Source of the DNA: Candidatus Poribacteria bacterium
Lineage (GTDB): Bacteria > Poribacteria > WGA-4E > GCA-2687025
Reading direction: 5' to 3'
NCBI GenBank assembly: GCA_963665845.2
Contig: OY762492.1
Span: 2,976,001 to 3,040,000 of the forward strand
DNA: 64,000 bases
Shown: positions 26,898 through 49,547 of the stretch, piece by piece
How positions within the stretch are numbered: the first letter of the stretch is position 1
Layout: the number at the start of each line of letters is the position of its first letter
Notes under the pieces: generated by a model
Databases searched by the model: none
The model's input: only the letters and a program-made list of their open reading frames with translations
What the model was told of the DNA's origin: nothing
Made by a program: the position numbers and the translations under genes

Positions 26898-28049
26898 ATG
26901 CCCGCTAAAATACTGGTCGTCGATGACGAACCTGACATCCTTGACCTGGTGGAGCTGTCGGTCGCTTCCGAGGGCTTTGACGTCATCAAGGCGACCAACG
27001 GAGAAGAGGCGCTTCAACAAGCGGAGCGCGACAGCCCGGACCTGATCCTGCTCGACATCAGCATGCCGGGAATGGACGGGTTTGAAACGCTGGAGGCTCT
27101 GCGGGAGAATCCGCATACGAAAGGGATACCGGTTATTCTACTCACGGCGCGCGCCCAGATCAGCGACAAGCTGCGCGGCATCAGCTCCGGCGCCGAAGAT
27201 TACATCACAAAGCCGTTCAATCCGAGCGAGCTGATTGAGCGCGTCAAAAGCTCTTTGAAAGACCCAGAGCCGTCTGGCGCGCGCGTCGATACGCTGAAAA
27301 ACTGGTCGGGCGAGATCACCCAGCTAGCGCAGCACCTGGAGGCGGCAAGCGAAATACAGCGCGCTTTGCTTCCAAAAGAGGCTCCGTCGGCGCCCGGTCT
27401 GGACATCGCCGGCGACCATCAAAGTTCGCTCAACGTCTCCGGCGACTTTTACGACTTTCTCGCCCTTGAAAACGGGCAATGGGGAATCGCCATCGCGGAC
27501 ATCAAGGGTAAAGGAATACCCGCGGCGCTGCTCATGGTCATGGCGAGAACGGCGCTGCGCATCGCCGCGCGCGAGCTGAAACCGCCGAATGAAACGCTTA
27601 AAACGGTGAACGATTTTCTGGCGGACGAGACGGAAGCGGACCTGTTCGCCACGATGGTGTATGCGGTGGTGAACCCCAGAACGCGCTCCTTCGCTTACTC
27701 GAACGGGGGGCATAATTATCCGATCTTGGCGCGCGGCGACGGAAACCTGCGCTATCTCAAAGAGGGCGGACCGCTGGTCGGCTCCTTCCCAGAGGCGCAG
27801 TTTGAAACCGAAACGATACAGCTGGAAACGGGCGACCGCATCCTGCTGTACACGGACGGCGCTGCCGATATGCTGAACGAACAGGGAGAGCCGTTTGGAG
27901 AGGAGCGGCTTGCCGACATCGTTCAGACCGCTTCGAGCATGGACGCCCATGAGCTGTGCGCCGCCGTGCGGGAGCGGTTGAAGCAGTACAACCCGGACCC
28001 GAACCTTGCGGACGATATGACGATCGTCGCCGTCCACGCCTCTCCGTAA
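26898..28049 (+). CDS. Response regulator receiver fused to PP2C/SpoIIE phosphatase (RsbU-like)
   Basis: ILVVDDE, LLDISMPGMDG, KPF receiver motifs; SGDFYD, IADIKGKG, LYTDG, DDMT phosphatase motifs. Confidence 0.92.
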   Translation: MPAKILVVDDEPDILDLVELSVASEGFDVIKATNGEEALQQAERDSPDLILLDISMPGMDGFETLEALRENPHTKGIPVILLTARAQISDKLRGISSGAEDYITKPFNPSELIERVKSSLKDPEPSGARVDTLKNWSGEITQLAQHLEAASEIQRALLPKEAPSAPGLDIAGDHQSSLNVSGDFYDFLALENGQWGIAIADIKGKGIPAALLMVMARTALRIAARELKPPNETLKTVNDFLADETEADLFATMVYAVVNPRTRSFAYSNGGHNYPILARGDGNLRYLKEGGPLVGSFPEAQFETETIQLETGDRILLYTDGAADMLNEQGEPFGEERLADIVQTASSMDAHELCAAVRERLKQYNPDPNLADDMTIVAVHASP

Positions 28050-28063
28050 AGAAACAAGACGCG

Positions 28064-28516
28064 GTGAGATTTGAGCATTTTATTCAGCCCCTTCCGAAAA
28101 GCGGGGAGCGCGTTCAGACGATAGCGGCGGCGTTTCCAAGCGCGCTGAAGTATGTTCCCGCGCTTGAAGCGATGGTGCATTCGCTTGCGCGGGCGTTGTC
28201 GTTTGACGAACGGGGCGCCAACGAAATCGCCGCCGCCGCCGTTGAAGGAGCGATGAACGCCCTTCAGCACGGCAACCAGAAAGACATCTCTAAAAACATC
28301 TTCCTTGCCGCCATCGTGGAGCCGAACCGACTCACCATCAAGATCAAGGACGAAGGCGCCGGTTTTGATGTGGAAAAGGTCGAAGATCCGCGCGAGGGGG
28401 ATCGAATCTGGAAAGACAGCGGGCGCGGCATCCTCATCATGCGCTATTATATGGACAGCGTCTCGTACGACCCGAAGGGCGTAGAGCTGACGCTGGTAAA
28501 GAAACGGCCTCGTTGA
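28064..28516 (+). CDS. Anti-sigma factor Ser kinase (RsbW-like HATPase)
   Basis: EGAMNALQHGN, IKDEGAGFD, SGRGILIMRYYMD; GTG start inferred. Confidence 0.88.
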   Translation: MRFEHFIQPLPKSGERVQTIAAAFPSALKYVPALEAMVHSLARALSFDERGANEIAAAAVEGAMNALQHGNQKDISKNIFLAAIVEPNRLTIKIKDEGAGFDVEKVEDPREGDRIWKDSGRGILIMRYYMDSVSYDPKGVELTLVKKRPR

Positions 28517-28540
28517 ACAATTTGGAGGGCGCGGATCGAA

Positions 28541-28924
28541 ATGAAACTGCGCATACGTCAAGAAGAGAACGGATGGGTGGCGCAAGTGGAAGGCAAGGTG
28601 ATCGCCCAAGAAAGCGTCAAACTGGGGCGTAAACTGGAAGAAACGATCCTGAACGCGCAGGAAAGCAGCCCGAATATCGTCGTGAATGTGGCGCAAACGG
28701 CGTATCTGGACAGCCAGGGACTCGGCGCTCTCGTCCGGGCGCGGCAGAGCGTTCAGGCGCGCGGCGGGCTGATGGCGCTCTCGGAGGCGCCGCAGCATAT
28801 CCTGCGCCTGCTGGAGATCACCAAGCTAAGCCAGATCATACCGGCGTATCCGAACGACGCGGCGGCGCTGAAAGCGATGCGCGCTCAAGCGGACGGCGGC
28901 GCGTCAACGCCGACGACCGCATGA
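28541..28924 (+). CDS. STAS-domain anti-anti-sigma factor (RsbV/SpoIIAA-like)
   Basis: YLDSQGLGALV phospho-Ser motif, RLLEITKL. Confidence 0.88.
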   Translation: MKLRIRQEENGWVAQVEGKVIAQESVKLGRKLEETILNAQESSPNIVVNVAQTAYLDSQGLGALVRARQSVQARGGLMALSEAPQHILRLLEITKLSQIIPAYPNDAAALKAMRAQADGGASTPTTA

Positions 28925-29598
28925 ACGAGCGCGAACGAAGCCCCATACCGGACGGCGTCTGGATCCAATGCGGCGAATGCGGCGAGGCGATCTTCGCGCG
29001 CGAATTTGAACGGGCGGGAAAAGTATGCCCCCACTGCGGTCAGCATGACGCGCTGAACGCCGCCGAACGCGCCGCGTATGTCCTGGATGAGTTCGATGAA
29101 GAGTCGGACGCGGACGGGCGTCCGTCGGGTCCGTTTCATACGGTGGGCGAGATCGCCGGCTTTCCGGCGGCGGTTGCCGTGATCGACGCCGAGTCGGCGG
29201 GGGTTTCTTCCGGCGGGCTGTTTCGTTCGGTCGCCGAGCTGGCGGGGTTGTCGAAGCCGCTCATTGTGTTTGCCGCCAACGGTACAGGGGCGGGTGAAGA
29301 GAGCGCCGAGCCGCGCCTTCGACTCACGCGCGCCCTGAAACGGCTCGGAGAGGAACGGCTGCCGTACATACTGGTCGTCACGGACGGGTCTGAAGAGGAC
29401 GGGTACCGCGCCTTTCTGCCGCCCGGCGACATCGTTTTGGCGGAAACGGGCAAACGCAAGGAGGCGGAGAACCCGCTGGAATCGGCGCATCCGCATATCG
29501 ACAGCTTTTTGACGCGCCATGAGCTGAACGAGACGCTGCCCAAACTGCTCGCCTTTTTCCGACAACGCGGGAGCGAAGATGGCGCACGTCCGAATTGA
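28921..29598 (+). CDS. Degenerate AccD-like protein (zinc finger plus shortened carboxyltransferase-beta fold)
   Basis: PDGVWIQCGEC...VCPHC zinc ribbon as in AccD, and LPYILVVTD. Lacks the GGS(M)G and SGGARMQE motifs. Confidence 0.6.
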   Translation: MNERERSPIPDGVWIQCGECGEAIFAREFERAGKVCPHCGQHDALNAAERAAYVLDEFDEESDADGRPSGPFHTVGEIAGFPAAVAVIDAESAGVSSGGLFRSVAELAGLSKPLIVFAANGTGAGEESAEPRLRLTRALKRLGEERLPYILVVTDGSEEDGYRAFLPPGDIVLAETGKRKEAENPLESAHPHIDSFLTRHELNETLPKLLAFFRQRGSEDGARPN

Positions 29599-30685
29599 AA
29601 ACGTACATAAAATTTATCCGCCCGACACGGTCGCCGTTCAAAACGCGAATCTAGAGGCGCTGGACAAGGAGTTCCTGGCGCTGGTCGGTCCGTCGGGATG
29701 CGGAAAATCGACGCTGCTGCGCATGATCGCCGGGCTGGAAAGCGTCACGCAGGGCGACATCTACATTGATGAGCGGCGCGTCACCGACGTTCTCCCGAAA
29801 GACCGCGACATCGCCATGGTGTTTCAAAACTACGCCCTTTATCCGCATATGACCGTCCATAAAAATATGGCGTTCGGGTTAAAGATGCGCAAGACGCCGA
29901 AGCGCGAAATCGAGCGGCGGGTGAAAAACGCGGCGGAGATTTTAGGAATAGAGCCGCTGTTGAACAGGCGCCCGCAGCGTCTCTCCGGCGGCGAACGGCA
30001 GCGCGCCGCCCTCGGACGCGCCATTGTACGCAACCCGAAGGTTTTTCTCTTCGATGAGCCGCTGAGCAACCTGGACGCGCAGCTGCGCGCTCAAATGCGG
30101 GCGGAACTGAAAAAACTGCACGCGCGGCTTGAAGCGACGATGATCTACGTAACCCATGACCAGACCGAGGCGATGACGATGGGCGACCGCATCGTCGTGT
30201 TGAAAGAGGGCGCCATTCAGCAGATTGCGACGCCGCTGCATCTCTACGAGCAGCCGAAAAACAGGTTTGTGGCGCAGTTCATCGGAAACCCGCCGATGAA
30301 CCTGATCGAAGGGCGCATGGCGACGCGGGAGCAGCGGCGCGTCTTTGAAGCGCCCGGCATGGAGTTGGACCTGCCGCGCCCCCTCTGGCCGGCTCTTCAG
30401 GCGGCGCCGGACGGGGAGATCGTCCTCGGCGTCCGCCCTGAACATGTGCGCATCGACCCCGAATTCACGCAGACGCGCCCGGCGGCGCGCATCCCTGCAG
30501 TGGTGGAGGTGGTGGAGCCGCTTGGAAGCGAAACGCTGGCGTATCTGAACGCGGAGGGAAGCGTCTTTATTGCGAAAATGCCGCCGACAAGCCTGCCGCG
30601 CGTCAACGAACGCATCGACGCCGCATTTGAGCCGGAGCAGATTCATTTCTTCAACGCCGCCTCTGGAGAAAGCTTCACCGCCTAG
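29579..30685 (+). CDS. Sugar ABC transporter ATP-binding protein (MalK/UgpC family)
   Basis: GPSGCGKST, VFQNYALYPHM, LSGGERQR, DEPLSNLDA, YVTHDQ, C-terminal TOBE domain. Confidence 0.93.
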   Translation: MAHVRIENVHKIYPPDTVAVQNANLEALDKEFLALVGPSGCGKSTLLRMIAGLESVTQGDIYIDERRVTDVLPKDRDIAMVFQNYALYPHMTVHKNMAFGLKMRKTPKREIERRVKNAAEILGIEPLLNRRPQRLSGGERQRAALGRAIVRNPKVFLFDEPLSNLDAQLRAQMRAELKKLHARLEATMIYVTHDQTEAMTMGDRIVVLKEGAIQQIATPLHLYEQPKNRFVAQFIGNPPMNLIEGRMATREQRRVFEAPGMELDLPRPLWPALQAAPDGEIVLGVRPEHVRIDPEFTQTRPAARIPAVVEVVEPLGSETLAYLNAEGSVFIAKMPPTSLPRVNERIDAAFEPEQIHFFNAASGESFTA

Positions 30686-32614: not shown

Positions 32615-34776
32615 CGCGACAGGCTTTAAAAACGCTGCGCGCCCCTTCGGTTCAGGCGCATGCGAGCTATGCGGTTTTGTGCGCCGTTTCGTTGGCGCTG
32701 GGATTGGGTCTACAGCTGGACGCGCGCCTGCATTTTGAGTACCGCAGCGCGCATGGCGTCATCGGATGGGTGAGCGTCCACGAGTATGCGAAGTCGCAGG
32801 AGACGCTGTATTATCTGCTCGCTGTCTTCGGCGTTCCGCTTTTCATTGCGCTGTGCCTGTTTGCTTGCGCGTTGTTTAGCCGATGGATGTCTCGGCAGAC
32901 GGGGCAGTCAGAGGCGTGGACGTTTCAGCGGTGCGCGTTCGCGTTGACGCCGCTGCTGCTCGCCTGTTTCTTTTTTAAGACGGCGGTTGGGTTAGCCTTG
33001 CTGTCGTTTTTGACGGTTTATACCGCGGGCTATTTTCTTTCGTCTAAGCCGCCGCCTGAAGCGAAACACGCCGATTCCGCTTCCCAGCCAAAAAAGAGCG
33101 CGCCCAAAACGCCCGCATGGAAAACGGCGCGACTCCTTTTAATATATGTCCTGATCCCGGCGCTTCTTTATCTGCTGTACTATTCGGGGGGAATCAACGG
33201 CGGCATCGACATGTTCCATGAGGGCGAACGGCTCGCGCCGCTGAACGAAATGCTGCGCGGCGGCGTTCCGTATCGGGACATCTACATTCAGCATGGGCTG
33301 TTTGAAAACGCTTTTTTGGCGCGCGTCGGGGCGGCGCTGTTCGGAGAGACGCTTGCCGGCGTTCGGCTGATGCAGCGGCTGCTCGGGCCGGTCGGTTATA
33401 TCGCGCTCTACATTCTCGGCGTTCAGTTATACCGCGGCTCATGGGCGTCCGCGCTGATACTTGTCATGATCGCGTCGGGGCATCATACAGGCGTCACGGC
33501 GCGGCATACGTTTGGGCTGTTGTGCGCCGCCATGTCGGTCGCCGCGCTTCAACAGGACGGAGCGCGCCGTCTTTGGATGATCGGCGCGTCGGGTTTGTGC
33601 GCCGGCTTCGCGTTCTGGCACAGCGCCGAGATCGGAATGTATTCGATCTGCGCCGTCGGCCTGTTCTGGACAATTCGCCTATTCGCCAAAGCGGAGACGA
33701 GAGACGAGCGGCTGCGCCCTGTTCTGTTTTTCAGCGCGGGGGTCGCTGCTGGGCTAGCTCCCGCCGCGCTCTGGCTGCTGCGGCATGGCGCGCTGGACGA
33801 CGCCGTCCGCAACACGTACATACAGCTCGCTTACCAGTTGGACACGTGGGGTTTGCCGTTCCCGCCGCTTGAGCGGGCGCTTCAGCCGTTCAAACAGCAT
33901 GGGCTGCTGGGCGGATGGAATGAGTTTATCGGAAGCGAGCCGCTGCGTTGGTATCTGCCGCCTGCCGCGTTGATCGCCGCCGGCGCCGTTCTCGTTCGGC
34001 GCGCTGTTCAAGGCGGTTTTTGGAAACATGAGGCATGCGTTAAGGGTTTGCTGACGGCGCTCTGTTTAGCCGCTTTTTTCCGCACGGCGCTGGGCAGGTC
34101 GGACGGCGGGCATCTGGTCTTCGGGTCCACCTTCTTTTGGCCGCTGCTACTGCTTCCGCTGGACAGGTCCGCCGCGGGCGTCTGGGACGCGCTTCGGGCG
34201 AAACGGAAGCTGACCGCGAGGCAGTGGGCATGGGCGGCGCTGCCGATACTGATCGCCGCGCTGTACGCCGGGCGCGTTCATCGCCCCGTTGCGGCGTTTC
34301 AAAGCCGATGGAACGGCATGCTCCAAAACCAGTTCAACCTGCCGAGAGCGGAGGAGGAGCTGACACGCGCCGGCCCGATCGACCTGCCGGACGATCAGGT
34401 TCAGCAGATTCAAGCGGTGGCGACGTTCATACAGGAGAACACGGCTCCCGGCGAACGCATTTTCGATTTCTCCAGTCAAGGCGCGTACTACTTCTTCGCC
34501 GACCGCCCCGCCGCGACCCGCTACCATCAGATCTGCTACGCCTCGGCGCCGGAGCTGGAGCGGGAAGTCATCAACGCGCTTGAAAAAGACCGGACGCGGC
34601 TTGTTCTGTATAAAACGGGCGGCTGGTTCGACACGGTGGACGGCATCGACAGCGAGCTGCGCTACCCCCAAATCGCGCTTTATTTATGCGATAATTATGA
34701 AGAGTACATTAATATCGATGGCGCGCGGGTATGGATGCGCATTCATGGGGCGGATTCCGCTCAACCGCCCTATTGA
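32599..34776 (+). CDS. Polytopic membrane protein, GT-C-like glycosyltransferase candidate
   Basis: About 12 or more hydrophobic segments, DMFHEGE..GGVPYRDI loop, and a C-terminal soluble domain (YYFFADRP). Confidence 0.6.
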   Translation: MGKRLTRQALKTLRAPSVQAHASYAVLCAVSLALGLGLQLDARLHFEYRSAHGVIGWVSVHEYAKSQETLYYLLAVFGVPLFIALCLFACALFSRWMSRQTGQSEAWTFQRCAFALTPLLLACFFFKTAVGLALLSFLTVYTAGYFLSSKPPPEAKHADSASQPKKSAPKTPAWKTARLLLIYVLIPALLYLLYYSGGINGGIDMFHEGERLAPLNEMLRGGVPYRDIYIQHGLFENAFLARVGAALFGETLAGVRLMQRLLGPVGYIALYILGVQLYRGSWASALILVMIASGHHTGVTARHTFGLLCAAMSVAALQQDGARRLWMIGASGLCAGFAFWHSAEIGMYSICAVGLFWTIRLFAKAETRDERLRPVLFFSAGVAAGLAPAALWLLRHGALDDAVRNTYIQLAYQLDTWGLPFPPLERALQPFKQHGLLGGWNEFIGSEPLRWYLPPAALIAAGAVLVRRAVQGGFWKHEACVKGLLTALCLAAFFRTALGRSDGGHLVFGSTFFWPLLLLPLDRSAAGVWDALRAKRKLTARQWAWAALPILIAALYAGRVHRPVAAFQSRWNGMLQNQFNLPRAEEELTRAGPIDLPDDQVQQIQAVATFIQENTAPGERIFDFSSQGAYYFFADRPAATRYHQICYASAPELEREVINALEKDRTRLVLYKTGGWFDTVDGIDSELRYPQIALYLCDNYEEYINIDGARVWMRIHGADSAQPPY

Positions 34777-34801
34777 CATGCCCGCGGTATAATGTTACAA
34801 T
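34773..34801 (+). promoter_or_regulatory. Near-consensus sigma70 promoter of the crystallin-flotillin cluster
   Basis: TTGACA-17 bp-TACAAT with an extended -10 TG. Confidence 0.7.
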
Positions 34802-34880
34802 CGCCTTAGCCTGCGCATAGAAGACGAAAGCGGCGCCAATGAAGCCGCTTCAGATTTGTTTATTGGTACGGAGAATCGAG

Positions 34881-36281
34881 ATGCCTGCAATCAATCCCCG
34901 CCTGATCCTTGAAGCGTATGAGCAGCCGAACTACGGCGGCGTCGCAGGCTATTTTGTCGACCCTGAACCGTCGCTCTGGCGCGTCGGCTTTCGCAACGGC
35001 TTCCGATCCGCCCGCGTCTACCGCGGACCTGGATACAAACGCGGACCGAACTACCGAATCGTTCTGTTCGACCGCTCCAACTACGAAGGGCGCAAACTGG
35101 TTCTCGCGCCCGGCTATTATCCCGACCTGCTGGACGTTGCGGTTCAGCACACGGGGCGGTTCCGCTCCTTCAACATCGCGCCGGATTACAACATCTCCGG
35201 TCCCGAATGGGGTACGGTGCCGGTCATCGTTCAGCTGTTCAACGACCCCGACTACAGGGGGCGGCATGCGACCGTTCTGCGCGATGTGCCGAACACGCAC
35301 AGCGAACTCGGCATGGCGGACACGATCAGCTCCGTCCGCGTCATCAAAGGCTCCGACTTTCCGCCGCAGGGCGCGAAGGTGCGCCTTTTCGAGCATCTGG
35401 ACTACGGCGGTCCGTTTCTTGAAATCGCCATGACAACCTACGACATGAAAAAGGAGATACCCGACCTGTCGATGCTTCCGATGGTCGGCGGGCAGTACGC
35501 CTCCACTTTCGGAAACGCGATCTCTTCGGTGCAGATCGAAGGATGGGCGTCGTCGGGAGAGTTTATGGAGATGGCGTACACCGACGAATTTGACCAAGCG
35601 GGAATGAACGAGGTTTGGCAATGGGTCGACCCGGCGGGCGGCGGAGAATGGCGCGAACGGCAAGGGTATCTTGAAATGCGCGCCGACCCCGGACAAGACC
35701 TGTGGCACGGCAACCCGCCCGGCAGCGGCGGCGATATGGACGCGCCGAGAATACTCATGGAGTACAGCGGCGACTTCGCCATCGAAACGCGGCTGCCGGT
35801 CACCCCGCAGCTGCGCGAACATGGCGGGCTGCTGGTCTGGAAAAGCCCAGGGCGTTTTTTGAGGCTTGAAAAAACATCCGGGGCGCATGCTTTCCGCGGC
35901 GCGGTGCGTTTTGAACGGCATGTGAACCGCGTCTTCCGCCTCGTCGGACGAGGACCGAACAACCTGATCCGAACGCGGCATCTCTACCTGCGGCTTGAAC
36001 GCCGGCGCAATCAGTTCACAGGCTTTGCCAGCCAAGACGGGCAGACCTGGGCAAACTGCGGCGTCACGAATGTCGGCATGGGCGATCCTGTTCAGATCGG
36101 ACTTCACGGACTCTGCCCCGGCAACATACCGCCGACCATCACCCGTTTCGACTACTTCCGCGTCTTCTCCAGAAAAGGCGAGGCGGTTCAGCTTCGGTTC
36201 CGACCGCAGGAGATCGAGCTGGACGAGCAGCAGGCAGACGCGCGGCGCATCGCCGCCCTGAGACGATTCATGGACGCATAA
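34881..36281 (+). CDS. Beta/gamma-crystallin domain protein with C-terminal ConA/LamG-like (DUF1349-type) domain
   Basis: Four Greek-key motifs (YEQPNYGG, FDRSNYEG, FNDPDYRG, FEHLDYGG; ADTISS, GNAISS), then DEF...APRIL...GDF.IET...YLRLERR...SQDGQTW. No signal peptide. Confidence 0.75.
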   Translation: MPAINPRLILEAYEQPNYGGVAGYFVDPEPSLWRVGFRNGFRSARVYRGPGYKRGPNYRIVLFDRSNYEGRKLVLAPGYYPDLLDVAVQHTGRFRSFNIAPDYNISGPEWGTVPVIVQLFNDPDYRGRHATVLRDVPNTHSELGMADTISSVRVIKGSDFPPQGAKVRLFEHLDYGGPFLEIAMTTYDMKKEIPDLSMLPMVGGQYASTFGNAISSVQIEGWASSGEFMEMAYTDEFDQAGMNEVWQWVDPAGGGEWRERQGYLEMRADPGQDLWHGNPPGSGGDMDAPRILMEYSGDFAIETRLPVTPQLREHGGLLVWKSPGRFLRLEKTSGAHAFRGAVRFERHVNRVFRLVGRGPNNLIRTRHLYLRLERRRNQFTGFASQDGQTWANCGVTNVGMGDPVQIGLHGLCPGNIPPTITRFDYFRVFSRKGEAVQLRFRPQEIELDEQQADARRIAALRRFMDA

Positions 36282-36288
36282 GAAAGGC

Positions 36289-36454
36289 AGACCTCATGCG
36301 TAAAGTTGGGACATTTGAGCGAATAATCGCTCTATTCATGGGAAAAAGCCGTCGCCTACCAGACCGTCATTCCCGCGCAAGCGGGAATCCAGAGTCTACC
36401 CCGAAACCGTTCGCGTTCACAACCAGAATTGTCTCAACTCTAAGGATGAGGTAA
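36289..36454. mobile_element. 166-bp MITE-like element (diverged ends)
   Basis: AGACCTCATGCGTAAAGTTGGGACAT ... GTCTCAACTCTAAGGATGAGGTAA. Confidence 0.7.
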
Positions 36455-36473
36455 GAAGAAAGGCGCACGAACC

Positions 36474-38000
36474 ATGGCGGTCAATCCGCGCATCATTGTT
36501 GAGCTGTTTAGGGACAAGCACTTTCAGGGGACGAAGGCGACCGTCGTGGAGCCGATCGACGATCTGAAAGAGATCGGGATGGACGAAACGATTTCCTCCA
36601 TCAAGGTTTATCACGGACCGGGCGCCGCGGCGGCGCCGAATCAGCGCGTCGTTTTCTTTGAACAGACGCGGTATCAGGGGCGCAAGATCACGCTTCCGCC
36701 CGGTTTCTATCCGGATATTCATGCGATACCGTACAACTTCGGCGATGTTGTGTCCTCGCTCAACTTTTCCTCCTCCGCCCGGCTGACCGCGCCGAAATAC
36801 GGCTGGATGCCGCTCATCGTGGAGGTGTTTCAAGACCTGAACTACAAAGGGCGGCGCGCGACCATCATGCGCGACACCAGCTACATCGGCGAGATCGGCA
36901 TGAACGACCGCATCTCCTCCATGCGCGTCACGCGCGGACCGAACTTTCCGTTCACGGGATGCCGCGCCGTTTTCTTTCAGCATCCCGACTATGAGGGGCG
37001 CGAGCTGTCGATCGCCCTCGGACCGCGCGACTTCTCCGTCCAGATCTCCAACCTAGACGACTACAACCTACGGACGCGGGCGGGCGAAACGATACAGCAT
37101 ATCGACGCCGACCGCGGCATTGAGAATCTGACAAAAACAGGCTTCGACAACACGATCAGCTCCGTCAAAATACTGCCGACCGGCAACTTCAACGTCCTCG
37201 TCATCGAAGGCGATTCGCACACGCGCGAACCCGGCATTTTGGAGGATTTCCGCGAACATCAGGGCAACATCTTCCGCTTCGACCATGTCCGCATCAACCA
37301 GGACATAGAGAACAGCGGCTCGGCGGACGCGGTGGAGTTTGAATCGATTCTGCACCTGCTCGACAATTACGACATCATCTGGCTCACCTGGAACGCGCCT
37401 GGGCATAACGGCTCCTATTTTCTGGAGCCGTCTGGGGAACGCGCCATACAGGAGTGGGTCAAGGCGGGCGGAACGCTCTGGGCGTCCGCGATGGACGACA
37501 ACATTGAAACGGACGAAAAAGAGGGCAAGAAATGGAGAGGCGACTGGCTGCCCGTTTACCGGCACCCGGCGCGCGTTGTGAACTCGGAGGATGTGAAGGT
37601 CTGGATGACGCGGGAGGGGCGCAAGACGGGGCTTTTCACCTGGCCCGATAAAGTGGACCCGGAGCGCATTCAAACGGACGACCACTGGGTCACGACCGAC
37701 CCCTCGTACACGATTTTAGCCCGGCGCGACGACAACCAGGAGCCGATTGCCGCGCAGTTGCCTTGGGGGGACGGGCATTATATTCTGTTTGCCGTGGACA
37801 CCCGTTCGGATGAAGTTGCCGAGGCGGCGCGTCCGCTCATCGGCAACGCGCTCTGTTTTCTCGCCAGCTTGGCATGGGCGACCTCGCCGCGGCAGCCCCT
37901 GCGCGGTCGCGCGCGGTCGGCAGGGGGCATGTCCAGCGCCGGCGTCGTTGACCGGACAAGAAATCGACGGCCGCAACCGTATCGAAGGAGCGTCACATGA
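36474..38000 (+). CDS. Beta/gamma-crystallin domain protein with C-terminal class I GATase-like (flavodoxin-type) domain
   Basis: Four Greek-key motifs with DETISS, GDVVSS, NDRISS, DNTISS. C-terminal LDNYDIIWL...IQEWVKAGGTLW...PWGDGHYILF. Confidence 0.75.
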   Translation: MAVNPRIIVELFRDKHFQGTKATVVEPIDDLKEIGMDETISSIKVYHGPGAAAAPNQRVVFFEQTRYQGRKITLPPGFYPDIHAIPYNFGDVVSSLNFSSSARLTAPKYGWMPLIVEVFQDLNYKGRRATIMRDTSYIGEIGMNDRISSMRVTRGPNFPFTGCRAVFFQHPDYEGRELSIALGPRDFSVQISNLDDYNLRTRAGETIQHIDADRGIENLTKTGFDNTISSVKILPTGNFNVLVIEGDSHTREPGILEDFREHQGNIFRFDHVRINQDIENSGSADAVEFESILHLLDNYDIIWLTWNAPGHNGSYFLEPSGERAIQEWVKAGGTLWASAMDDNIETDEKEGKKWRGDWLPVYRHPARVVNSEDVKVWMTREGRKTGLFTWPDKVDPERIQTDDHWVTTDPSYTILARRDDNQEPIAAQLPWGDGHYILFAVDTRSDEVAEAARPLIGNALCFLASLAWATSPRQPLRGRARSAGGMSSAGVVDRTRNRRPQPYRRSVT

Positions 38001-41000
38001 GAATTGGAATTACGATCGGCGTCGCAGTGATCGCAGTCTTCTTCGCCGCTATCGCGCCGGAAAGGCTCGGCATGGATAATATGATCACTGACAAAACGAT
38101 CTCTGGATTGCTCAAGTACGGCATGTTGATCGGCTTGCCGGTCGTCGCGGCTCTGGCGGCGATGTACCGTTATGAAAAGCCGCGCGCCGATCAAGCCCTG
38201 GTGCGGACGGGGGGGCGCAAGGAAAAGATATCCATCACAGGCGGCCTCTGGGTCAATAAAATTATCCATGAAATACGCCAGATTTTTCTGGACACGGTGC
38301 GGCTGGACATTGTCCGCGTCGGGCCGGACGCGCTCATCACCAGCGATTTTTTAAGGGCGGACATTGAGGCGGCGTTTTTTATACGGGTGGAACCTGACCC
38401 GGACCAGATACTGCGGGCGGCGCAGAGCCTCGGCGAACGCACCATGACCGCCGAGGAGCTGACGGAGCTGCTTGAACAAAAACTGGAAGGCGCCCTGCGC
38501 ACCGTCGCCGCCGAGAAGGAGCTGCAAGACCTGCTTCAAAAACGCAAAGACTTTGGGGAAGCGGTTCAAGAATCGGTGAAAACCGACCTTGAAGAGAACG
38601 GCTTGACCCTAGAGACCGTCTCGCTCATCCGAGTCGACCAGGCGCCGCTGGAATCGATGGACGAGAACAACCAGTTTGACGCGCAGGGGATTCTCAAGAT
38701 CACCGAGATAACGCAAGAGAACCGATATGAAGCGGAGAAGATACGCCTGGAGGTTGACGTTCAGATCACGGAGGCGGAGACCAGTACCCAGGAAGAGAAG
38801 CTGGAGCTGAACAAGCGGCTCGCGTGGGCGGAGGCGGAGCAGGCGAAGGAGATCGCGACCTACGCCGCCGAGAAAGAGGCGGACACGCTTGCCTTCCAGT
38901 ATGAGCAGGATCAGCGGATTCAAGAGACGGAGCAGATGACGAAACTCGCCATTGAGCGCGCCACGATTGAGCAGGAACAGGGCGTGCTGGAGCGCGAGAT
39001 CGAGAAGCTGCTGCATGTGGAGACGGCGCGGATACAGCAGGAGCAGTTCGTTCAAGAGGCGGAGATTGAAAAGAACCTCAACGTGGAGCTGGCGCAAGTT
39101 GACCAGTCGCAGAAGGTTCAGATCGCCGAAGTGGAGCGGATGCTGGCGGTTGAAATGGCGCGGGTCGCTCAAGAGCAGACGGTGGAAGAACGCGAAATTG
39201 AGCGGAATCTGGGCGTTGAAACGGCTGAAATCGCGCAGCAAGAGGCGGTTCAGGTGCGCGATGTGGAGCGCGTCATGGCGACCGAGACGGCGCGCATTGA
39301 TCAAGAACGTGTCGTCCAAACGCGCGATATTGAAAAGAACCTCATCATCGAAACGGCGCAAATCGACCAGACGCGGCAGGTTCAGGAGGCGGAAATCGAA
39401 CGAAGCTTGCGCGTGGAAACGGCAAGAATCGCCCAAGAGCAGATCGTTAAAGAACGCGATATTGAGCGCGAACTCGGCATCCAGATTGCCCAGATTGCGC
39501 AGCAGGAGGGTACGCAGGTTCGAGAAATTGAGCGTGTCTTGGCAACCGAGACGGCGCGCATCGATCAGGAGCGGGTCGTCCAAACGCGCGACATCGAAAA
39601 GAACCTGATCATTGAGACTGCGCAGATCGATCAGACGCGCCAAGTCCAAGAGGCGGAAATCGAACGAAGCTTGCGCGTTGAAACGGCAAGAATCGCCCAA
39701 GAGCAGATCGTTAAAGAACGCGATATTGAGCGCGAACTCGGCATTCAAATCGCCCAGATCGCGCAACAGGAAGGAACGCAGGTCAGAGAAATTGAGCGGG
39801 TCTTGGCAACCGAAACGGCGCGCATTGACCAAGAGCGTGTCGTCCAAACGCGCGACATCGAAAAGAACCTGATCATCGAAACGGCGCAAATCGACCAAAC
39901 GCGGCAGGTGCAAGAGGCGGAAATCGAACGAACCTTGCGCGTCGAGACGGCGCGCATCGCCCAAGAGCAGATCGTTAAAGAACGCGATATTGAGCGCGAA
40001 CTCGGCATTCAAATCGCGCAGATCGCGCAGCAGGAAGGAACGCAGGTCAGAGAAATTGAGCGGGTCCTGGCGACTGAAACGGCGCGCATCGATCAGGAGC
40101 GGGTCGTCCAAACGCGCGACATCGAAAAGAACCTCATCATCGAAACGGCGCAAATCGACCAAACGCGGCAGGTGCAAGAGGCGGAAATCGAACGAACCTT
40201 GCGCGTGGAAACGGCAAGAATCGCCCAAGAGCAGATCGTTAAAGAGCGCGATATTGAGCGCGAACTCGGCATCCAGATCGCGCAAATCGCGCAGCAGGAA
40301 GGAACGCAGGTCAGAGAAATTGAGCGGGTCTTGGCAACCGAAACGGCGCGCATCGATCAGGAGCGGGTCGTCCAAACGCGCGATATTGAAAAGAACCTGA
40401 TCATTGAGACGGCGCAAATCGACCAAACGCGCCAAGTCCAAGAGGCGGAAATCGAACGAACCTTGCGCGTCGAGACGGCGCGCATCGCCCAAGAGCAGAT
40501 CGTTAAAGAACGCGATATTGAGCGCGAACTCGGCATCCAGATCGCCCAGATCGCGCAACAGGAAGGAACGCAGGTTAGAGAGGTTGAGCGGGTCCTGGCA
40601 ACCGAGACGGCGCGCATCGATCAGGAGCGGGTCGTCCAAACGCGCGACATCGAAAAGAACCTGATCATAGAGACGGCGCAAATCGACCAGACGCGGCAGG
40701 TTCAAGAGGCGGAAATCGAACGAACCTTGCGCGTTGAAACGGCAAGAATCGCCCAAGAGCAGGTCGTTAAAGAGCGCGATATTGAACGCGAACTCGGCAT
40801 CCAGATCGCGCAAATCGCGCAGCAGGAAGGAACGCAGGTTAGAGAAATTGAGCGTGTCTTGGCAACCGAAACGGCGCGCATCGATCAGGAGCGGGTCGTC
40901 CAAACGCGCGACATCGAAAAGAACCTGATTATCGAAACGGCGCAAATCGATCAGACGCGCCAAGTTCAAGAGGCGGAGATCGAACGAACCTTGCGCGTTG

Positions 41001-42151
41001 AAACGGCAAGAATCGCCCAAGAGCAGATCGTTAAAGAACGCGATATTGAGCGCGAACTCGGCATCCAGATCGCGCAGATCGCGCAACAGGAAGGAACGCA
41101 GGTCAGAGAAATTGAGCGGGTCTTGGCAACCGAAACGGCGCGCATCGATCAAGAGCGGGTCGTCCAAACGCGCGACATCGAAAAGAACCTCATCATCGAG
41201 ACGGCGCAGATTGATCAAACGCGCCAAGTCCAAGAGGCGGAAATCGAACGAACCTTGCGCGTTGAAACGGCAAGAATCGCCCAAGAGCAGATCGTTAAAG
41301 AACGCGATATTGAGCGCGAACTCGGCATTCAGATTGCCCAGATCGCGCAGCAGGAAGGAACGCAGGTTCGAGAAATTGAGCGCGTCTTGGCAACCGAAAC
41401 GGCGCGCATCGATCAAGAGCGGGTCGTCCAAACGCGCGACATCGAAAAGAACCTCATCATCGAGACAGCGCAGATCGACCAGACAAGGCAGGTGCAGGAG
41501 GCGGAGATCCAGCGCACCTTAGTGGTGGATACGGCGCGGATCAATCAGGAGATGATGGTCGCCTTGGTCGGCGAAGACAAAAACATCTCGATCTTCAACC
41601 GTCAGCGCGACACCGAATTGTCTGAACGGGACAAGCTGGAAGCCGAGGCCGAAAAGGCTGAAGCGATGGTGAACGTGTCGGCGGTGGAACGCACGCGCGA
41701 AGCGGAATGGCAGCGCGAAGTGGCGATCATCAACGCCGAGAGTCAGGCGCAGCCGATAGAGCGGCTTGCCGAAGCGATACTCGCCGAGGCGCAGGCAAAG
41801 GCGGAAGGCGAAATGGCGCACCTGCAAGCGCGCAACACCGCCGAACAGCGCGTCCTCGTACAAGAAGCGGTTATGGAGCTGATCGACCGCTCCCCCGACA
41901 TCGTTGAGCAGATGGTGAAGCCCGCCGAGCAGATCGACAGCATCAAAATACTGGACATGGGGCAAGGCGACGGACCCGCCAACCGAAACAACATGGGCAA
42001 ACTTGCCAACACGATACTGGACACGGGCGTTCTGTCGCCGATTTTGAAGGAGCTGTTCAACTTCGCCGATGTGGACGCGGAGCAGATTGCGGACAAGCTG
42101 ACCGAGTATCTGGGCGCGCTCATTCGTCCGCAGGCGCCCGACAACGACTAG
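37997..42151 (+). CDS. Giant flotillin-like SPFH protein with 88-aa tandem-repeat coiled-coil stalk
   Basis: Two N-terminal TM segments. SPFH domain (ALVRTGG, ALITSDFLRADIEAAFFIRV, DLEENGLTLETVSL, NNQFDAQG). Flotillin C-terminus (MVKPAEQIDSIKILDMG). Confidence 0.9.
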   Translation: MRIGITIGVAVIAVFFAAIAPERLGMDNMITDKTISGLLKYGMLIGLPVVAALAAMYRYEKPRADQALVRTGGRKEKISITGGLWVNKIIHEIRQIFLDTVRLDIVRVGPDALITSDFLRADIEAAFFIRVEPDPDQILRAAQSLGERTMTAEELTELLEQKLEGALRTVAAEKELQDLLQKRKDFGEAVQESVKTDLEENGLTLETVSLIRVDQAPLESMDENNQFDAQGILKITEITQENRYEAEKIRLEVDVQITEAETSTQEEKLELNKRLAWAEAEQAKEIATYAAEKEADTLAFQYEQDQRIQETEQMTKLAIERATIEQEQGVLEREIEKLLHVETARIQQEQFVQEAEIEKNLNVELAQVDQSQKVQIAEVERMLAVEMARVAQEQTVEEREIERNLGVETAEIAQQEAVQVRDVERVMATETARIDQERVVQTRDIEKNLIIETAQIDQTRQVQEAEIERSLRVETARIAQEQIVKERDIERELGIQIAQIAQQEGTQVREIERVLATETARIDQERVVQTRDIEKNLIIETAQIDQTRQVQEAEIERSLRVETARIAQEQIVKERDIERELGIQIAQIAQQEGTQVREIERVLATETARIDQERVVQTRDIEKNLIIETAQIDQTRQVQEAEIERTLRVETARIAQEQIVKERDIERELGIQIAQIAQQEGTQVREIERVLATETARIDQERVVQTRDIEKNLIIETAQIDQTRQVQEAEIERTLRVETARIAQEQIVKERDIERELGIQIAQIAQQEGTQVREIERVLATETARIDQERVVQTRDIEKNLIIETAQIDQTRQVQEAEIERTLRVETARIAQEQIVKERDIERELGIQIAQIAQQEGTQVREVERVLATETARIDQERVVQTRDIEKNLIIETAQIDQTRQVQEAEIERTLRVETARIAQEQVVKERDIERELGIQIAQIAQQEGTQVREIERVLATETARIDQERVVQTRDIEKNLIIETAQIDQTRQVQEAEIERTLRVETARIAQEQIVKERDIERELGIQIAQIAQQEGTQVREIERVLATETARIDQERVVQTRDIEKNLIIETAQIDQTRQVQEAEIERTLRVETARIAQEQIVKERDIERELGIQIAQIAQQEGTQVREIERVLATETARIDQERVVQTRDIEKNLIIETAQIDQTRQVQEAEIQRTLVVDTARINQEMMVALVGEDKNISIFNRQRDTELSERDKLEAEAEKAEAMVNVSAVERTREAEWQREVAIINAESQAQPIERLAEAILAEAQAKAEGEMAHLQARNTAEQRVLVQEAVMELIDRSPDIVEQMVKPAEQIDSIKILDMGQGDGPANRNNMGKLANTILDTGVLSPILKELFNFADVDAEQIADKLTEYLGALIRPQAPDND
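39302..41545 (+). repeat. Intragenic 264-bp tandem repeat, 8.5 copies
   Basis: Units start at 39302, 39566, 39830, 40094, 40358, 40622, 40886, 41150 and 41414 (half unit). Confidence 0.95.
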
Positions 42152-42157
42152 CGGCGC

Positions 42158-43120
42158 ATGGGGGCGTTAGCCGAGATCGTCGGGCATGAGACGCAGATAG
42201 AGTTGCTTCGGAGCGCCGTTGAATCGCGCAGTCCGGCGGAGGCGTATCTGTTTGCGGGTTTGCCGGGCGTCGGGAAAAAGACGCTGGCGCTCGCCTTTGC
42301 CGCGGCGCTCAACTGCGAGGAGTCGGCGGACGACGCATGCGGCGAGTGCGTCTCATGCAGAAAAGCCGTCTCGCTGAACCATCCGGACGTTCGCCTCTTT
42401 CAACCGGACGGCGCCGTTTTTAAGGTGGATCAGGTGCGCGAAATACGCCGCCTGCTCACCTTTCAACCGATGGAGGCGCGGCGCAAAGCGTATGTGTTGA
42501 CCGACGTGGAAACGATGCGCGCCGAAGCGGCGAACGCTTTTTTGAAGTCGCTGGAGGAGCCGCCCGGCGCGACGACGATTATCCTGACAACCTCCAACAT
42601 CAACGCGCTGCTGCCGACGATACTATCCCGCTGCCAGATTTTGAAGCTGCTGCCGGCCTCCATGGAGACGCTGACGGCGGCCCTCGCGGAGCGCGGCATG
42701 GAGGAAGCGGAGGCGCTGGCTCTCGCGCGGCAGTCCGGCGGACGGGCGGGGCGCGCTTTTCAAGCGATGTCCGCCAAACAAAGCGCCGGCGCGGACGAGC
42801 AGATCGAAGCGCTGCGGCAGGCGGACGAGCTGGACGCCTTCCGTCTGGCGGAGAGCTGGCAGACGCGGCCTGAACAGCTGGAGGATCTGATGGCGTCGCT
42901 GCGGCGGGCGCTTCAGTGGCGCGTCGGGATTAAGCGGGAGGAATGCTCCGTCGCGCTGGCGGCGTTCGCGCGCGGCGAGACGGAGCGGTCGCTTCAACGC
43001 AAAATGCGCGCCGTCATGGAGGCGCAATACAGGCTCAAACGGAACCTGAACGGCGCGCTTGTGATGGAATGCCTCGCCTTTCAGCTGCTGGCGCCGCCCG
43101 GCGGACAGCGGCGCCGTTAG
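42158..43120 (+). CDS. holB: DNA polymerase III subunit delta'
   Basis: AYLFAGLPGVGK, C...ACGECVSC zinc site, HPDV, AANAFLKSLEEPP, LLPTILSRC. Confidence 0.92.
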   Translation: MGALAEIVGHETQIELLRSAVESRSPAEAYLFAGLPGVGKKTLALAFAAALNCEESADDACGECVSCRKAVSLNHPDVRLFQPDGAVFKVDQVREIRRLLTFQPMEARRKAYVLTDVETMRAEAANAFLKSLEEPPGATTIILTTSNINALLPTILSRCQILKLLPASMETLTAALAERGMEEAEALALARQSGGRAGRAFQAMSAKQSAGADEQIEALRQADELDAFRLAESWQTRPEQLEDLMASLRRALQWRVGIKREECSVALAAFARGETERSLQRKMRAVMEAQYRLKRNLNGALVMECLAFQLLAPPGGQRRR

Positions 43121-46100
43121 GGGCTTCTGCCGGCGTCCCAGACGCGAATCGCGCTTCCGCCTCCGCTGACAAGCCTCAACCCGTCCGGCGAAAAGGCGAG
43201 CGAGCGAACCCTGTCCGTGTCTCCTTTGAACGTTTGGAGACGCTTGCCTGTCTCGGCGTCCCAGACGCTTATCGTTTTGTCGTAGCCGCCGGCGGCAAGC
43301 TTGGCGCCGTCCCGCGAATACGCCACAGCGTAGATAGAGGACGGACCCCTTCTGAACGCATGCAGCTGCTCTCCTGTCTCGGCGTCCCAGACATAGACCG
43401 CGCCGTCTCGGCCGGCGGTGGCGATCTTGGAGCCGTCCGGCGAATACGCCGCCGAATAAACTTCGAGCCGATGCCCTCTGAGCGTTAGGAGAACGCCGCC
43501 TGTTTCGACATCGAAGATGTACACTTTATGGTCGGAGCAGCCGGCGGCGATCCTGGAGCCGTCTGGAGAATAGGCGGCGGTACGGACGCCTGAAGACGCC
43601 GCGAAGGTTTTTAAAAGCGCTCCGGTCTCGGCGTCCCAGACGCGTACCGTGCCGTCGTAGCTGCCGCTGGCGATCCTGGAACCGTCCTGTGAATACGCCG
43701 CCTCCGTAACCGAGTGTGTATGCCCCTTGAGCGTATGCAGAAGCGCGCCGGTCTCGGCGTCCCAGATGCGTACCGTCTTGCCGGCGCCGCCGGCGAGCCT
43801 GGAACCGTCCGGAGAATAGACGCTGCCCGAATGCCCTTTGAGCGTTCGCAGCTCCTCGCCTGTATTGGCGTCCCAGATGCGAACCGTCGTGCCGACGCGG
43901 CCGGCGATCTTGGAGCCGTCCGGCGAATAGACTGCCGCCGCATGCGACGCCTCCCCGTTTCCTCTTAAAACGGCTCTCAAAGCGGGATCGTTGAGATAAA
44001 TGTTGGACGCGGCATTGTCCCCGACGGAGCTGAGCGGAACGCTCACCTCAACCGCGGTCTGCCCTGACGGTTCGATGATCGCTCTGTAGATGGAGCCGAC
44101 GCCTTGAAAGCCGCGGACGCTGCCGTATTTGACAGAGATGTCCTCATGCGTGAAGCCGTCCGCGACGCCGCTAAAGGCGATCGTTACCTCAAACGGAATC
44201 TGCATCCCTTTTTCAGGTCCGCTCACCGTCACGGTTAACGGCGGCGCCGGCTCCGCCTTCAGCCGCCAAATGCGCATCGCTTGATCGTCTCCCGCGCTCA
44301 CAAGCGCGCGTCCGTCCGGGGAGATGTCCACCGCGCGGACGGCGCCGTTATGCGCCTTGTATGTTTGCGCCGGCTCGCCTGTTTCGGCGTTTAAGAGGCG
44401 AATCATGCCGTCCTCCCCGCCGTCGGCGAGCGCGTTGTCTTCAAAATGATCGGCTAAATACGCCTCCCCAGAAGCGCCGGTCAATGTGCGAATCGCTTCG
44501 CCGGTCGAAGCGTCCCAGACGCGAACCGCCCCGTCCTCTCCCGCAGAGACGAGCGACTTGCCGTCGGAGGAAAAGGCGGCGAATGGTACGGCGCCGGAAT
44601 GCGCTTTGATCGTTTGAAGAATAACCCCTGCCGCGGGGTTCCAGATATGGATGGAGCCGTCCGCCCCTCCGCTGACAATCATCGTTCCGTCCGGCGAATA
44701 TGCGGCGGTATGGACGGCGCCCGTAGACCCCTTCAGCGTTAGGAACCGCTTGCCGGTTTCGGCGTCCCATAGATGTATCGCGCCGTCCGCCCCGCCGCTG
44801 ACAATCTCGGCGCCGTTGGGCGAATACGCGGCGCACAGTACGGAACCTGTATGCCCCGTCCATTCCGCCTTCAAGAGGAGGCAGGCGGCGTAGATGTTGG
44901 AGGGGAGATGGCTGCCTGCGGCGTTTGCGGGAACTTTGACCCGCGTGTAGTCGGCGCCGATGGGCTGAATGAGCGCCTGATACGCGGCGCCAGAACCGCT
45001 TAGGCTGACAACCTTTCCGTTCACCGCCTCAATGTCGGACGGCTCAAAGCCGCTGACCGGTTCGCTAAAGACGATGTCGGTTGTAAAGGCGCCGTCAACG
45101 ACATCGTCGGGTCCGCTCACCTTCACCGTCAAGGGCGGAGGCGGCGGTTCGCCCGCTTTGACCGTCCAAAGCCGAACCGAGTTGTCCGAGCTGCCGCTGG
45201 CAAGCATGAAACCGTCCGGCGAAAAGGCGATCGAAAGTACCTCATCCGTATGCCCTTCATATGTTTGCAGCGGTTTGCCGGTTGCGGCGTCCCAGATTCG
45301 CGCCGTTTTGTCTTCGCTTCCGCTGGCGATCATGGAGCCGTCCGGCGAAAAGGCGGCGGATCGAACCTTGTCGGTATGCCCTGTGAGCGTGCGGATCGTT
45401 TCGCCCGTTTTGAGTTCCCAGATCCGAACGGCGTCAGTCTCTCCGGCGCTGGCGACCAGTTCGCCGTCCGGCGAAAAGGCGACCGTATGAATGGAACCAA
45501 AAGGATCGTTGAACGCGCGGATCGTCTCGCCCGTCTCGGCGTTCCAGATGCGTACCGCGCTTCGGCTTGCGCTGGCGAGCATAGACCCGACCATCGAAAA
45601 GGCGACGATATTGACCTCGTCGGAATGCCCTGTGAGCGTTCGCAGATGCTCCCCTGTGGCGGCGTCCCAGATGCGTATTGTTTTATCGTCGCTTGCGCTG
45701 GCGAGCATGGAGCCGTCCGGCGAATAGGCAACCGAACGCACATAATCGGAATGCCCTGTGAGCGTTCGGATTATTTTGCCGGTTTCAGGACTCCAAATTT
45801 CAACGTTTTTGTGCGGATCAATGGCAAGCATGGAGCCGTCCGGCGAAAAGACGGGGAATCCCCTCTCTCTAATCTGTTGAAGCGTCTCGCCGGTTGCAGG
45901 GTTCCATATCATCGTCCATGGATAACCGCAGCTGGCAATCAGGGAGCCGTCCGGCGAAAAGGCGACCGAAACGACCCCATCGGTATGCTCGGTGAACGCC
46001 GCTTTCGCGGCTGGATAAAAGGAGTACGCGTTGGATTGGATGTTGTTCGCGGCGGCTTTCTTTGGAACGCGAACGCGCGCGGCGTCCAAGCCGGCGGGCT

Positions 46101-49403: not shown

Positions 49404-49547
49404 CAGGTACTCCTAGGCGGCTGACTCATTTTACCGCCTGCTGAATAAGATGTGAACCCGCATGAGAAAGGGACAGGGTTCTTCCTTGCCGCGCCCGCCG
49501 ACTGCGGAAATTTGCGCAACGCCAAACGCGCCCCGCGCCGCCTTCCT

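What the first reader, a model, noticed from the sequence alone, without database searches (positions are those of the whole stretch)
34773..42151. Candidate new system: two beta/gamma-crystallin proteins co-transcribed with a giant flotillin
Seen: a near-consensus promoter (TTGACA-17-TACAAT) precedes two paralogous proteins (starts MPAINPR and MAVNPR). Each has four Greek-key crystallin motifs, six of the eight carrying (D/N)xx(I/V)SS-type sites, but different C-terminal domains (ConA-like versus GATase-like). Neither has a signal peptide. The second overlaps the flotillin start (ATGA, 37997-38000), indicating translational coupling. Known: N/D-N/D-x-x-S/T-S is the Ca2+ site of microbial beta/gamma-crystallins such as Myxococcus Protein S; bacterial flotillins usually sit beside NfeD genes, and none is visible here; SPFH proteins form membrane-bound cages. 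Inference: a Ca2+-responsive membrane compartment or scaffold in which the crystallin proteins are cargo or adaptors.
Basis: partly seen in the sequence, partly recalled or inferred. Interest (0 to 1): 0.85.

Follow-up and report, generated by a model that had tools for sequence, protein, structure and literature searches.

The report
Extra-long flotillin cage with crystallin partners
In the marine bacterial phylum Poribacteria, a conserved gene cluster pairs two crystallin-domain proteins with a membrane-scaffold protein (flotillin) whose stalk varies between species almost always in exact 88-residue steps and is here about five times longer than in humans, so it likely builds an elongated, membrane-anchored cage onto which the crystallin proteins are predicted to dock.

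Summary
The window is from Poribacteria. cryA (crystallin + DUF1349), cryB (crystallin + GATase-I/ThuA-like fold) and a 1384-aa YqiK-type flotillin follow an 11/12 promoter. The flotillin lies within 1.8 kb downstream of cryB in 78 of 78 related loci with room. A fourth, Cys-rich gene belongs to the cluster but sits 1 Mb away in this genome. The genes occur in both classes of the phylum and are missing together from the same 32 genomes. The stalk keeps an 11-residue register in 79 of 79 gap-free orthologues (336-1040 aa; this one is longest) and has two opposite hydrophobic stripes, as a barrel wall would. Best reading: an elongated flotillin cage, roughly 75-155 nm here, with CryB as partner in place of NfeD. 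Binding, cage assembly and Ca2+ control are inferred; the complex predictor was unavailable. Corrections: only 2 of 8 Ca2+ motifs are canonical, the ATGA overlap is genus-specific, and the cryA-cryB spacer is a repeat element. My searches found no paper on it, but this scan noted it twice on other genomes (e1-4949585, e1-1494738).

The parts
34773..34801 (+). sigma-70-type promoter TTGACA-17-TACAAT (11/12, extended -10)
   Evidence: kept in the same-genus relative; in relatives a match of 11 or better precedes cryB in 47 of 69 loci where it is the first gene, 0 of 5 where cryA is upstream, against 3 of 358 other ORFs
34881..36281 (+). cryA: two beta/gamma-crystallin domains + DUF1349 (ConA-like) domain + basic amphipathic C-terminal tail; no signal peptide
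36289..36469 (.). 181-nt multicopy miniature repeat element inserted between cryA and cryB; not part of the system
   Evidence: 173 genomic hits of 100 nt or more, absent in the same-genus relative; skipped by contigs of two RNA runs
36474..38000 (+). cryB: two beta/gamma-crystallin domains + class I GATase/ThuA-like domain; no signal peptide; the constant upstream neighbour of the flotillin
37997..42151 (+). YqiK/FloT-type flotillin, 1384 aa
37997..38167 (+). two predicted transmembrane helices (hairpin), predicted to place the SPFH domain in the cytoplasm
   Evidence: hydropathy; helices 2-24 and 28-56 in the orthologue model
38168..38716 (+). SPFH (Band 7) domain
39266..41520 (+). stalk repeat array: 8.5 copies of 264 bp (88 aa = 4 x 22 = 8 x 11), copies 91% alike and differing almost only at synonymous sites
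41570..42151 (+). end of wall helix, cap helix, cap beta-strand and C-terminal helices
   Evidence: aligns with the C-terminal part of flotillin-1 as a weak second stretch; Pfam Flot in orthologues

Best explanation
This is a Poribacteria gene cluster in which a YqiK-type flotillin has lost its usual NfeD-like neighbour and is inherited with two crystallin-domain proteins and a Cys-rich protein; the flotillin likely assembles into an elongated cage on the inner face of the cell membrane, and CryB is predicted to be its docking partner. Shown: gene order, joint inheritance, shared promoter, domain content, and a stalk that changes length only in multiples of 11 residues, nearly always 88. Inferred from solved SPFH structures: subunits would stand side by side, anchored by a transmembrane hairpin and SPFH ring and closed by the cap strand, so module number would set cage height (about 25-65 nm for the common 336-424-residue stalks, 75-155 nm for the 1040 residues here). 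Inferred: CryB, and more loosely CryA and the Cys-rich protein, would bind the cage, CryA possibly through its conserved basic amphipathic tail. Most speculative (about 0.25 on its own): the low-affinity crystallin sites would be empty at resting cytoplasmic Ca2+ and fill when seawater Ca2+ leaks in, so docking would be a membrane-damage response in which the cage confines or protects client proteins.
For: Linkage: flotillin within 1.8 kb downstream of cryB in 78 of 78 loci with room (80 examined, the best 80 of 123). Full order cryA-cryB-flotillin-Cys-rich gene in the other class of the phylum (L123), first three genes in L121 and L122. Profile: crystallin-type hit in 143 of 176 genomes, flotillin orthologue in 139 of 176, one match each, Cys-rich gene in 120 of 151; all three not found in family f2 or genera g15 and g22, where Pfam Crystall is also 0 of 32. 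Promoter moves with the first gene. Expression: in the supplement of PMC5087111, three consecutive genes that I match by length, annotation and neighbours have mean FPKM 708, 225 and 176, flanked by 108 and 57. Cage anatomy: best PDB hits are flotillin-1/2 by sequence (E 6e-14) and by fold; the orthologue model has one continuous helix 224-512. Register: 79 of 79 gap-free complete orthologues equal 6 mod 11, 75 of 79 equal 72 mod 88. Ile at 99% and Val at 97% of two positions of the 11-mer form stripes on roughly opposite faces, no Pro. Repeats are under purifying selection: 507 synonymous against 26 non-synonymous codon differences. The closest paralogous flotillin sits beside a YqiJ_N gene.
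Against: No direct evidence of oligomerisation or of any contact. The flotillin model is low-confidence overall (pLDDT 65.5, pTM 0.32) and concerns a 679-aa orthologue. A two-striped hendecad helix could also form bundles or sheets. cryA is unlinked in most f8 and some f6 genomes, and this genome has three more cryA paralogues with no flotillin nearby. One genome has a second cryB with no flotillin downstream (L134), one has a biotin-synthase-like gene between cryB and flotillin (L043), and one 91%-complete genome has a crystallin gene but no flotillin or Cys-rich hit (G132). The loci are dominated by one family, so the counts overstate independence: the profile rests on about two losses. Only 2 of 8 Ca2+ motifs here are canonical. 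A 3-fold range of stalk length suggests exact length is not critical.
Confidence: 0.45

Rival explanations
1. An ordinary YqiK/FloT-type microdomain scaffold whose stalk has grown by tolerated tandem duplication; the crystallin proteins are co-regulated stress proteins that share the operon but do not bind it.
For: Paralogous YqiJ-linked flotillins in the same phylum already have 299-343-residue stalks in an 11-residue register. Length varies from 336 to 1040. cryA and the Cys-rich gene can leave the operon. Stand-alone double-crystallin proteins occur without flotillins (0 of 13 mostly short loci).
Against: cryB has stayed beside the flotillin across both classes while flanking genes changed. 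Genes that moved away were kept, and all were lost together. The full cryB architecture forms only two 50% clusters among 1.84 billion representatives.
Confidence: 0.25
2. The stalk forms a membrane-anchored strut, filament or molecular ruler (a bundle or sheet of long helices, not a closed cage) that positions the crystallin proteins or another structure at a set distance from the membrane.
For: Predicted uninterrupted helix of up to about 150 nm, with length in discrete steps. Poribacteria have unexplained bipolar granules (PMC5087111, abstract and passages).
Against: The SPFH base and the cap strand region that close flotillin cages are both retained and well conserved. Heptad periodicity is nearly absent: amplitude 0.04 at period 3.5 against 0.39 at 3.67.
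Confidence: 0.15
3. CryA and CryB are signal-less exported proteins, like Myxococcus Protein S, that load Ca2+ and bind glycans outside the cell; the flotillin organises their export site.
For: Protein S is the best PDB sequence hit (E 1.2e-5); its signal-less surface assembly is recalled, not tested. Stand-alone versions of the CryB C-domain have signal-peptide-like N-termini (P0092, P0097). Reported crystallin affinities of 4-100 uM (PMC3551895 passage) suit seawater better than cytoplasm.
Against: No secretion genes in any neighbourhood examined. Flotillin cages are described as sealed by the membrane, not as channels (PMC13000311 passages).
Confidence: 0.1
4. An anti-phage defence system.
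For: Multi-gene cluster of mostly unknown function with a membrane component.
Against: No PADLOC hit for 4 of 4 proteins; single copy, conserved neighbourhoods within families and parallel divergence of cryB and flotillin (distance correlation 0.88-0.96), unlike patchy defence islands.
Confidence: 0.03

Closest known systems
Human flotillin-1/2 cage (PDB 9bq2, 9l3g; PMC11260169, PMC13000311)
   Same: SPFH base, long wall helix without heptads, cap helix and cap beta-strand; best sequence hit (E 6e-14) and best fold hit.
   Different: The human wall is 186-189 residues and about 14 nm high, the longest among the SPFH proteins compared in PMC11260169. Here the stalk is 336-1040 residues, modular, with a transmembrane hairpin and a single subunit type.
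Bacterial YqiK/FloT flotillins with NfeD-like partners (E. coli yqiJ-yqiK, B. subtilis yuaF-floT; names recalled)
   Same: Band_7 + Flot domains; weak NCBIfam FloT hit far below cut-off; a paralogue in Poribacteria lies beside a YqiJ_N gene.
   Different: No NfeD/YqiJ neighbour; an extra N-terminal helix; 88-residue module expansion; crystallin and Cys-rich partners.
Microbial beta/gamma-crystallins (Myxococcus Protein S, spherulin 3a, vibrillin)
   Same: Two-domain Greek-key fold, N/D-N/D-x-x-S/T-S-like motifs, no signal peptide.
   Different: Fused to DUF1349 or GATase-like domains; most motifs deviate at position 1; linked to an SPFH gene.
Vault (major vault protein) and HflKC-FtsH cages
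   Same: SPFH-related cages that enclose partner proteins; weaker fold hits.
   Different: No MVP repeat domains; no protease in the cluster.
ThuA-like / GATase1-like domains (4jqs, 1t0b, 3rht, IFT52 N-terminal 5fms)
   Same: Fold of the CryB C-domain, Z 13.9-16.0.
   Different: No Cys nucleophile or His-Pro-Glu motif; an invariant Ser338 sits at what appears from sequence to be the elbow position; activity untested.

Membership tests
Flotillin (SPFH, YqiK/FloT type) | Band_7 domain plus C-terminal Flot domain | tested here: met
   20 of 20 members of A2 match both; window protein found by Band_7 over cut-off; flotillin-1 E 6e-14
Flotillin (SPFH, YqiK/FloT type) | N-terminal membrane anchor followed by long helical wall | tested here: met
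   hydropathy; orthologue model
Flotillin (SPFH, YqiK/FloT type) | Assembly into a ring or cage | not testable with these tools
   needs EM; only indirect support from register and stripe pattern
FloT equivalog (NCBIfam NF058507) | Score above curated cut-off 700 | tested here: not met
   33.4 bits
SPFH-NfeD operon | NfeD/YqiJ gene adjacent to the SPFH gene | tested here: not met
   neighbours are cryB and holB; the genome's NfeD hits lie about 68 kb away
Beta/gamma-crystallin superfamily | Pfam Crystall match and double Greek-key fold | tested here: met
   (27 of 27)
Ca2+-binding microbial crystallins | Canonical N/D-N/D-x-x-S/T-S motif pair in each domain | tested here: inconclusive
   met in CryB domain 2; partial in CryB domain 1 and CryA domain 2; lost in CryA domain 1 in this family
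Ca2+-binding microbial crystallins | Measured Ca2+ binding | not testable with these tools
   needs ITC
Class I glutamine amidotransferase (catalytic) | Cys-His-Glu triad | tested here: not met
   fold met; by sequence, Ser at the presumed elbow and no His-Pro-Glu; geometry not inspected
Known anti-phage systems (PADLOC 2.0) | Match to defence protein models | tested here: inconclusive
   no hit for 4 of 4 proteins; library dates from 2023
Bacterial microcompartment or gas vesicle locus | Shell genes linked to or co-distributed with the cluster | tested here: not met
   BMC in 74 of 74 genomes including those lacking the cluster; gas vesicle family in 1 of 151

The most novel reading that the evidence does not exclude
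Poribacteria build a new kind of protein compartment: a capped, membrane-anchored tube up to about 150 nm long, whose length is genetically set in 88-residue steps, and which is loaded or gated by Ca2+-sensing crystallin adaptors and a zinc-binding protein. It would be the largest flotillin cage described, a vault-like organelle, and a natural length-programmable nanocontainer.
Probability: 0.3. Interest if true: 0.88.

Novelty: new variant of a known kind. Interest (0 to 1): 0.62.

Why it matters
What bacterial flotillin cages enclose, and what sets their size, are open questions. This family offers a natural series with walls from 336 to 1040 residues in fixed steps, so the link between wall length and cage size can be tested directly, and it names specific candidate partners in place of NfeD. 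It would also give cytoplasmic microbial crystallins a defined role and offer a candidate for the long-discussed compartmentation of Poribacteria, which are abundant uncultivated sponge symbionts. If the cage is real, it is a tunable nanocontainer.

Tried and rejected
Complex prediction of CryB with flotillin pieces was not available, so binding is untested. Assembly artefact for the repeats: rejected; no two of 8 units are identical (10-28 nt differences) and relatives carry stalks of 776, 864 and 952 residues. Rows dropped from stalk counts: L048 (N gap; 1 of 80), L132 (N gap), L046, L053 (N gaps), L020 and contig-end fragments; no complete second-class flotillin was available. Link to gas vesicles or BMCs: rejected. 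Defence: no PADLOC hit. Crystallin-flotillin linkage outside Poribacteria: none in 13 metagenome loci of one stand-alone subfamily, most under 5 kb, so weak. Atlas: CryB C-domain leads only (MJECL34, DUF4960, scores 0.93-0.94 with under 170 shared features); Cys-rich protein nothing above 0.78 and no Pfam hit of note. RNA runs: shares were small (0.05-0.16); contigs cover all three genes while the upstream gene is almost uncovered, but contigs cannot show starts, levels or single transcripts, and no listed piece clearly bridges cryB to the flotillin. Literature: Poribacteria+flotillin 0 papers, Poribacteria+SPFH 0, hendecad+SPFH 0, crystallin+flotillin+operon+SPFH 2 unrelated by listing, Poribacteria+crystallin 30 papers, 20 listed, none relevant by title or abstract start. 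Subscription papers and most supplements were not searched. The upstream ATG at 34839 was rejected as the cryA start: orthologues begin at 34881.
Full report
1. Observation. The promoter, three ORFs and ATGA overlap are at the stated coordinates. CryA (466 aa) is Crystall + DUF1349/GH43_C2, CryB (508 aa) is Crystall + an unassigned domain. The CryB model (pLDDT 78) matches beta/gamma-crystallins and its C-domain matches ThuA/GATase-I folds (Z 16.0, rmsd 3.4, 204 aligned). Neither protein has a hydrophobic stretch. The 1384-aa protein is a flotillin: shorter relatives match Band_7 and Flot in 20 of 20 cases, and their profile finds human flotillin-1 (E 6e-14), with a weak second stretch reaching the cap strand.

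2. Origin and linkage. Of the 80 best cryB loci in the genome collection, the titles name Poribacteria or an unclassified bacterium. A flotillin lies within 1.8 kb downstream in 78 of 78 loci that have room; two end at a contig edge. One of the 78 has a biotin-synthase-like gene in between. cryA is upstream of cryB in 7 of those 80 loci, which are mostly family f8, but in 12 of 16 loci chosen across other families. The other class of the phylum has the order cryA-cryB-flotillin-Cys-rich gene (L123), so the four-gene order is probably ancestral. One second cryB copy has no flotillin downstream (L134).

3. Joint inheritance. Among 176 genomes, 143 have a crystallin-type hit (this query also picks up cryA) and 139 have the flotillin orthologue, always one match. 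The Cys-rich gene is in 120 of 151 genomes at least 90% complete. All three were not found in family f2 (11 genomes) or genera g15 (20) and g22 (1); Pfam Crystall is 0 of 32 there, while 12 of the 21 g15/g22 genomes keep another flotillin, which in the one examined lies beside YqiJ_N. This amounts to about two independent losses, not 32. BMC genes (74 of 74) and gas vesicle genes (1 of 151) do not track the cluster. The full CryB architecture forms only two clusters among 1.84 billion representatives.

4. Operon. Where cryB is the first gene, a promoter match of 11 or better lies within 300 nt in 47 of 69 loci; where cryA is upstream, in 0 of 5; among other ORFs of the same loci, 3 of 358. The window's promoter is kept in the same-genus relative. 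The cryA-cryB spacer is a multicopy element absent from that relative, where the genes are 17 nt apart. Contigs from two RNA runs join cryA to cryB across it, which fits but does not prove one transcript. In the supplement of PMC5087111 (I saw the abstract, passages and matching table rows), consecutive genes 2265143637 (crystallin)..636 (COG2268) and ..635 (hypothetical) have mean FPKM 708, 225 and 176; I matched them by length, annotation and neighbours, not by sequence. The ATGA overlap is limited to 2 of 30 pairs.

5. The stalk. It contains 8.5 copies of a 264-bp unit, each 4 x 22 residues. Units differ at 507 synonymous against 26 non-synonymous codons in pairwise counts. The distance between two fixed anchors runs from 336 to 1040 residues; 79 of 79 gap-free complete orthologues keep the same remainder modulo 11 and 75 of 79 differ by exact multiples of 88; this window has the longest. 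Within the 11-mer, two positions are 99% and 97% large hydrophobic and fall in stripes on roughly opposite helix faces; heptad periodicity is nearly absent. A 679-aa orthologue models as two N-terminal helices, SPFH domains and a continuous helix 224-512, at low overall confidence, and matches flotillin cages first. Human flotillin forms a 44-mer cage whose 186-189-residue wall has no heptads and stands about 14 nm high; other SPFH walls are 44-189 residues (PMC11260169, passages and one section; PMC13000311, passages). Scaling between that tilt and a straight helix gives 75-155 nm for this stalk. That range is my estimate.

6. Calcium. The canonical motif is N/D-N/D-x-x-S/T-S, with affinities of 4-100 uM (PMC3551895, passages). 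Here 2 of 8 motifs are canonical. Positions 2 and 5, which from memory supply the side-chain ligands, are intact in 5 of 8 here, in 22, 22, 26 and 27 of 27 CryB orthologues, and in 9, 9, 12 and 12 of 13 CryA proteins; CryA domain 1 is degenerate in this family. Resting cytoplasmic Ca2+ near 0.1 uM (recalled) would leave such sites empty, so a Ca2+ role implies influx or export.

7. Mechanism. Most likely (0.45) the flotillin forms an elongated cage on the inner membrane face with CryB as docking partner in place of NfeD; CryA and the Cys-rich protein are looser partners. A Ca2+-triggered damage response is plausible but the least supported step. Rivals: a conventional scaffold with bystander crystallins (0.25), a strut or ruler (0.15), signal-less export (0.10), defence (0.03). 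No binding prediction could be run.

8. Novelty. The parts belong to known families. SPFH genes are often paired with NfeD (PMC13086221, passages); the crystallin partners and the modular giant wall were not found in print by my searches. This scan had already noted the cluster on two other genomes; those notes are not independent support. New here are the phylum-wide joint loss, the promoter that follows the first gene, the strict register and stripe pattern, published expression values and the longest stalk among those measured. Verdict: a real and apparently undescribed variant of the flotillin cage family; interest 0.62.

Noticed in passing
window 36289-36469: A 181-nt miniature repeat element with a short direct repeat at its ends, 673 genomic hits of which 173 are 100 nt or more; absent at this site in close relatives.
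   Followed up: partly
G000:C1:1975553-1976320 (outside the window): The Cys-rich fourth gene of the cluster, kept but about 1 Mb away; directly downstream of the flotillin in 67 of 74 loci. In families f6, f8 and f9 it carries an extra ~190-residue insert.
   Followed up: yes
window 42158-43120: holB (DNA polymerase III delta') starts 6 nt after the flotillin stop; contigs of two RNA runs span the junction. This linkage was seen only in family f1.
   Followed up: partly
L012:11236-18001, L127:1-5309: In families f6 and f9 the cluster is followed on the same strand by the nuo (complex I) operon; in f8 by an M6 peptidase gene.
   Followed up: no
window 24893-26379 and 29579-30685; L035:911-8804: minC, a MinD-like ATPase and a MalK-type gene lie upstream of cryA both here and in an f8 genome where cryA is separate from cryB, so cryA may mark the older site.
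   Followed up: partly
window 36177-36281: cryA ends in a basic amphipathic helix after a variable linker, seen in 20 of 21 locus-derived cryA proteins; a candidate docking peptide.
   Followed up: partly
L121:6160-8214, P0011-P0033: In the second class CryB is 684-694 aa, with a second GATase-like domain nested in the first.
   Followed up: partly
G000:C1:2258897-2260324, 1654151-1655491, 2067801-2069132: Three further cryA-type paralogues in this genome, with no flotillin within 6 kb.
   Followed up: partly
window 43117-53391: Tandem WD40-repeat proteins with signal-like N-termini on the minus strand (the third was not scanned).
   Followed up: no
window 26898-28924: RsbU-like phosphatase, RsbW-like kinase and STAS protein: a partner-switching module upstream of the cluster.
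   Followed up: no
G000:C1:656775-659503: A tandem pair of other SPFH genes, only distantly related to the giant flotillin.
   Followed up: no
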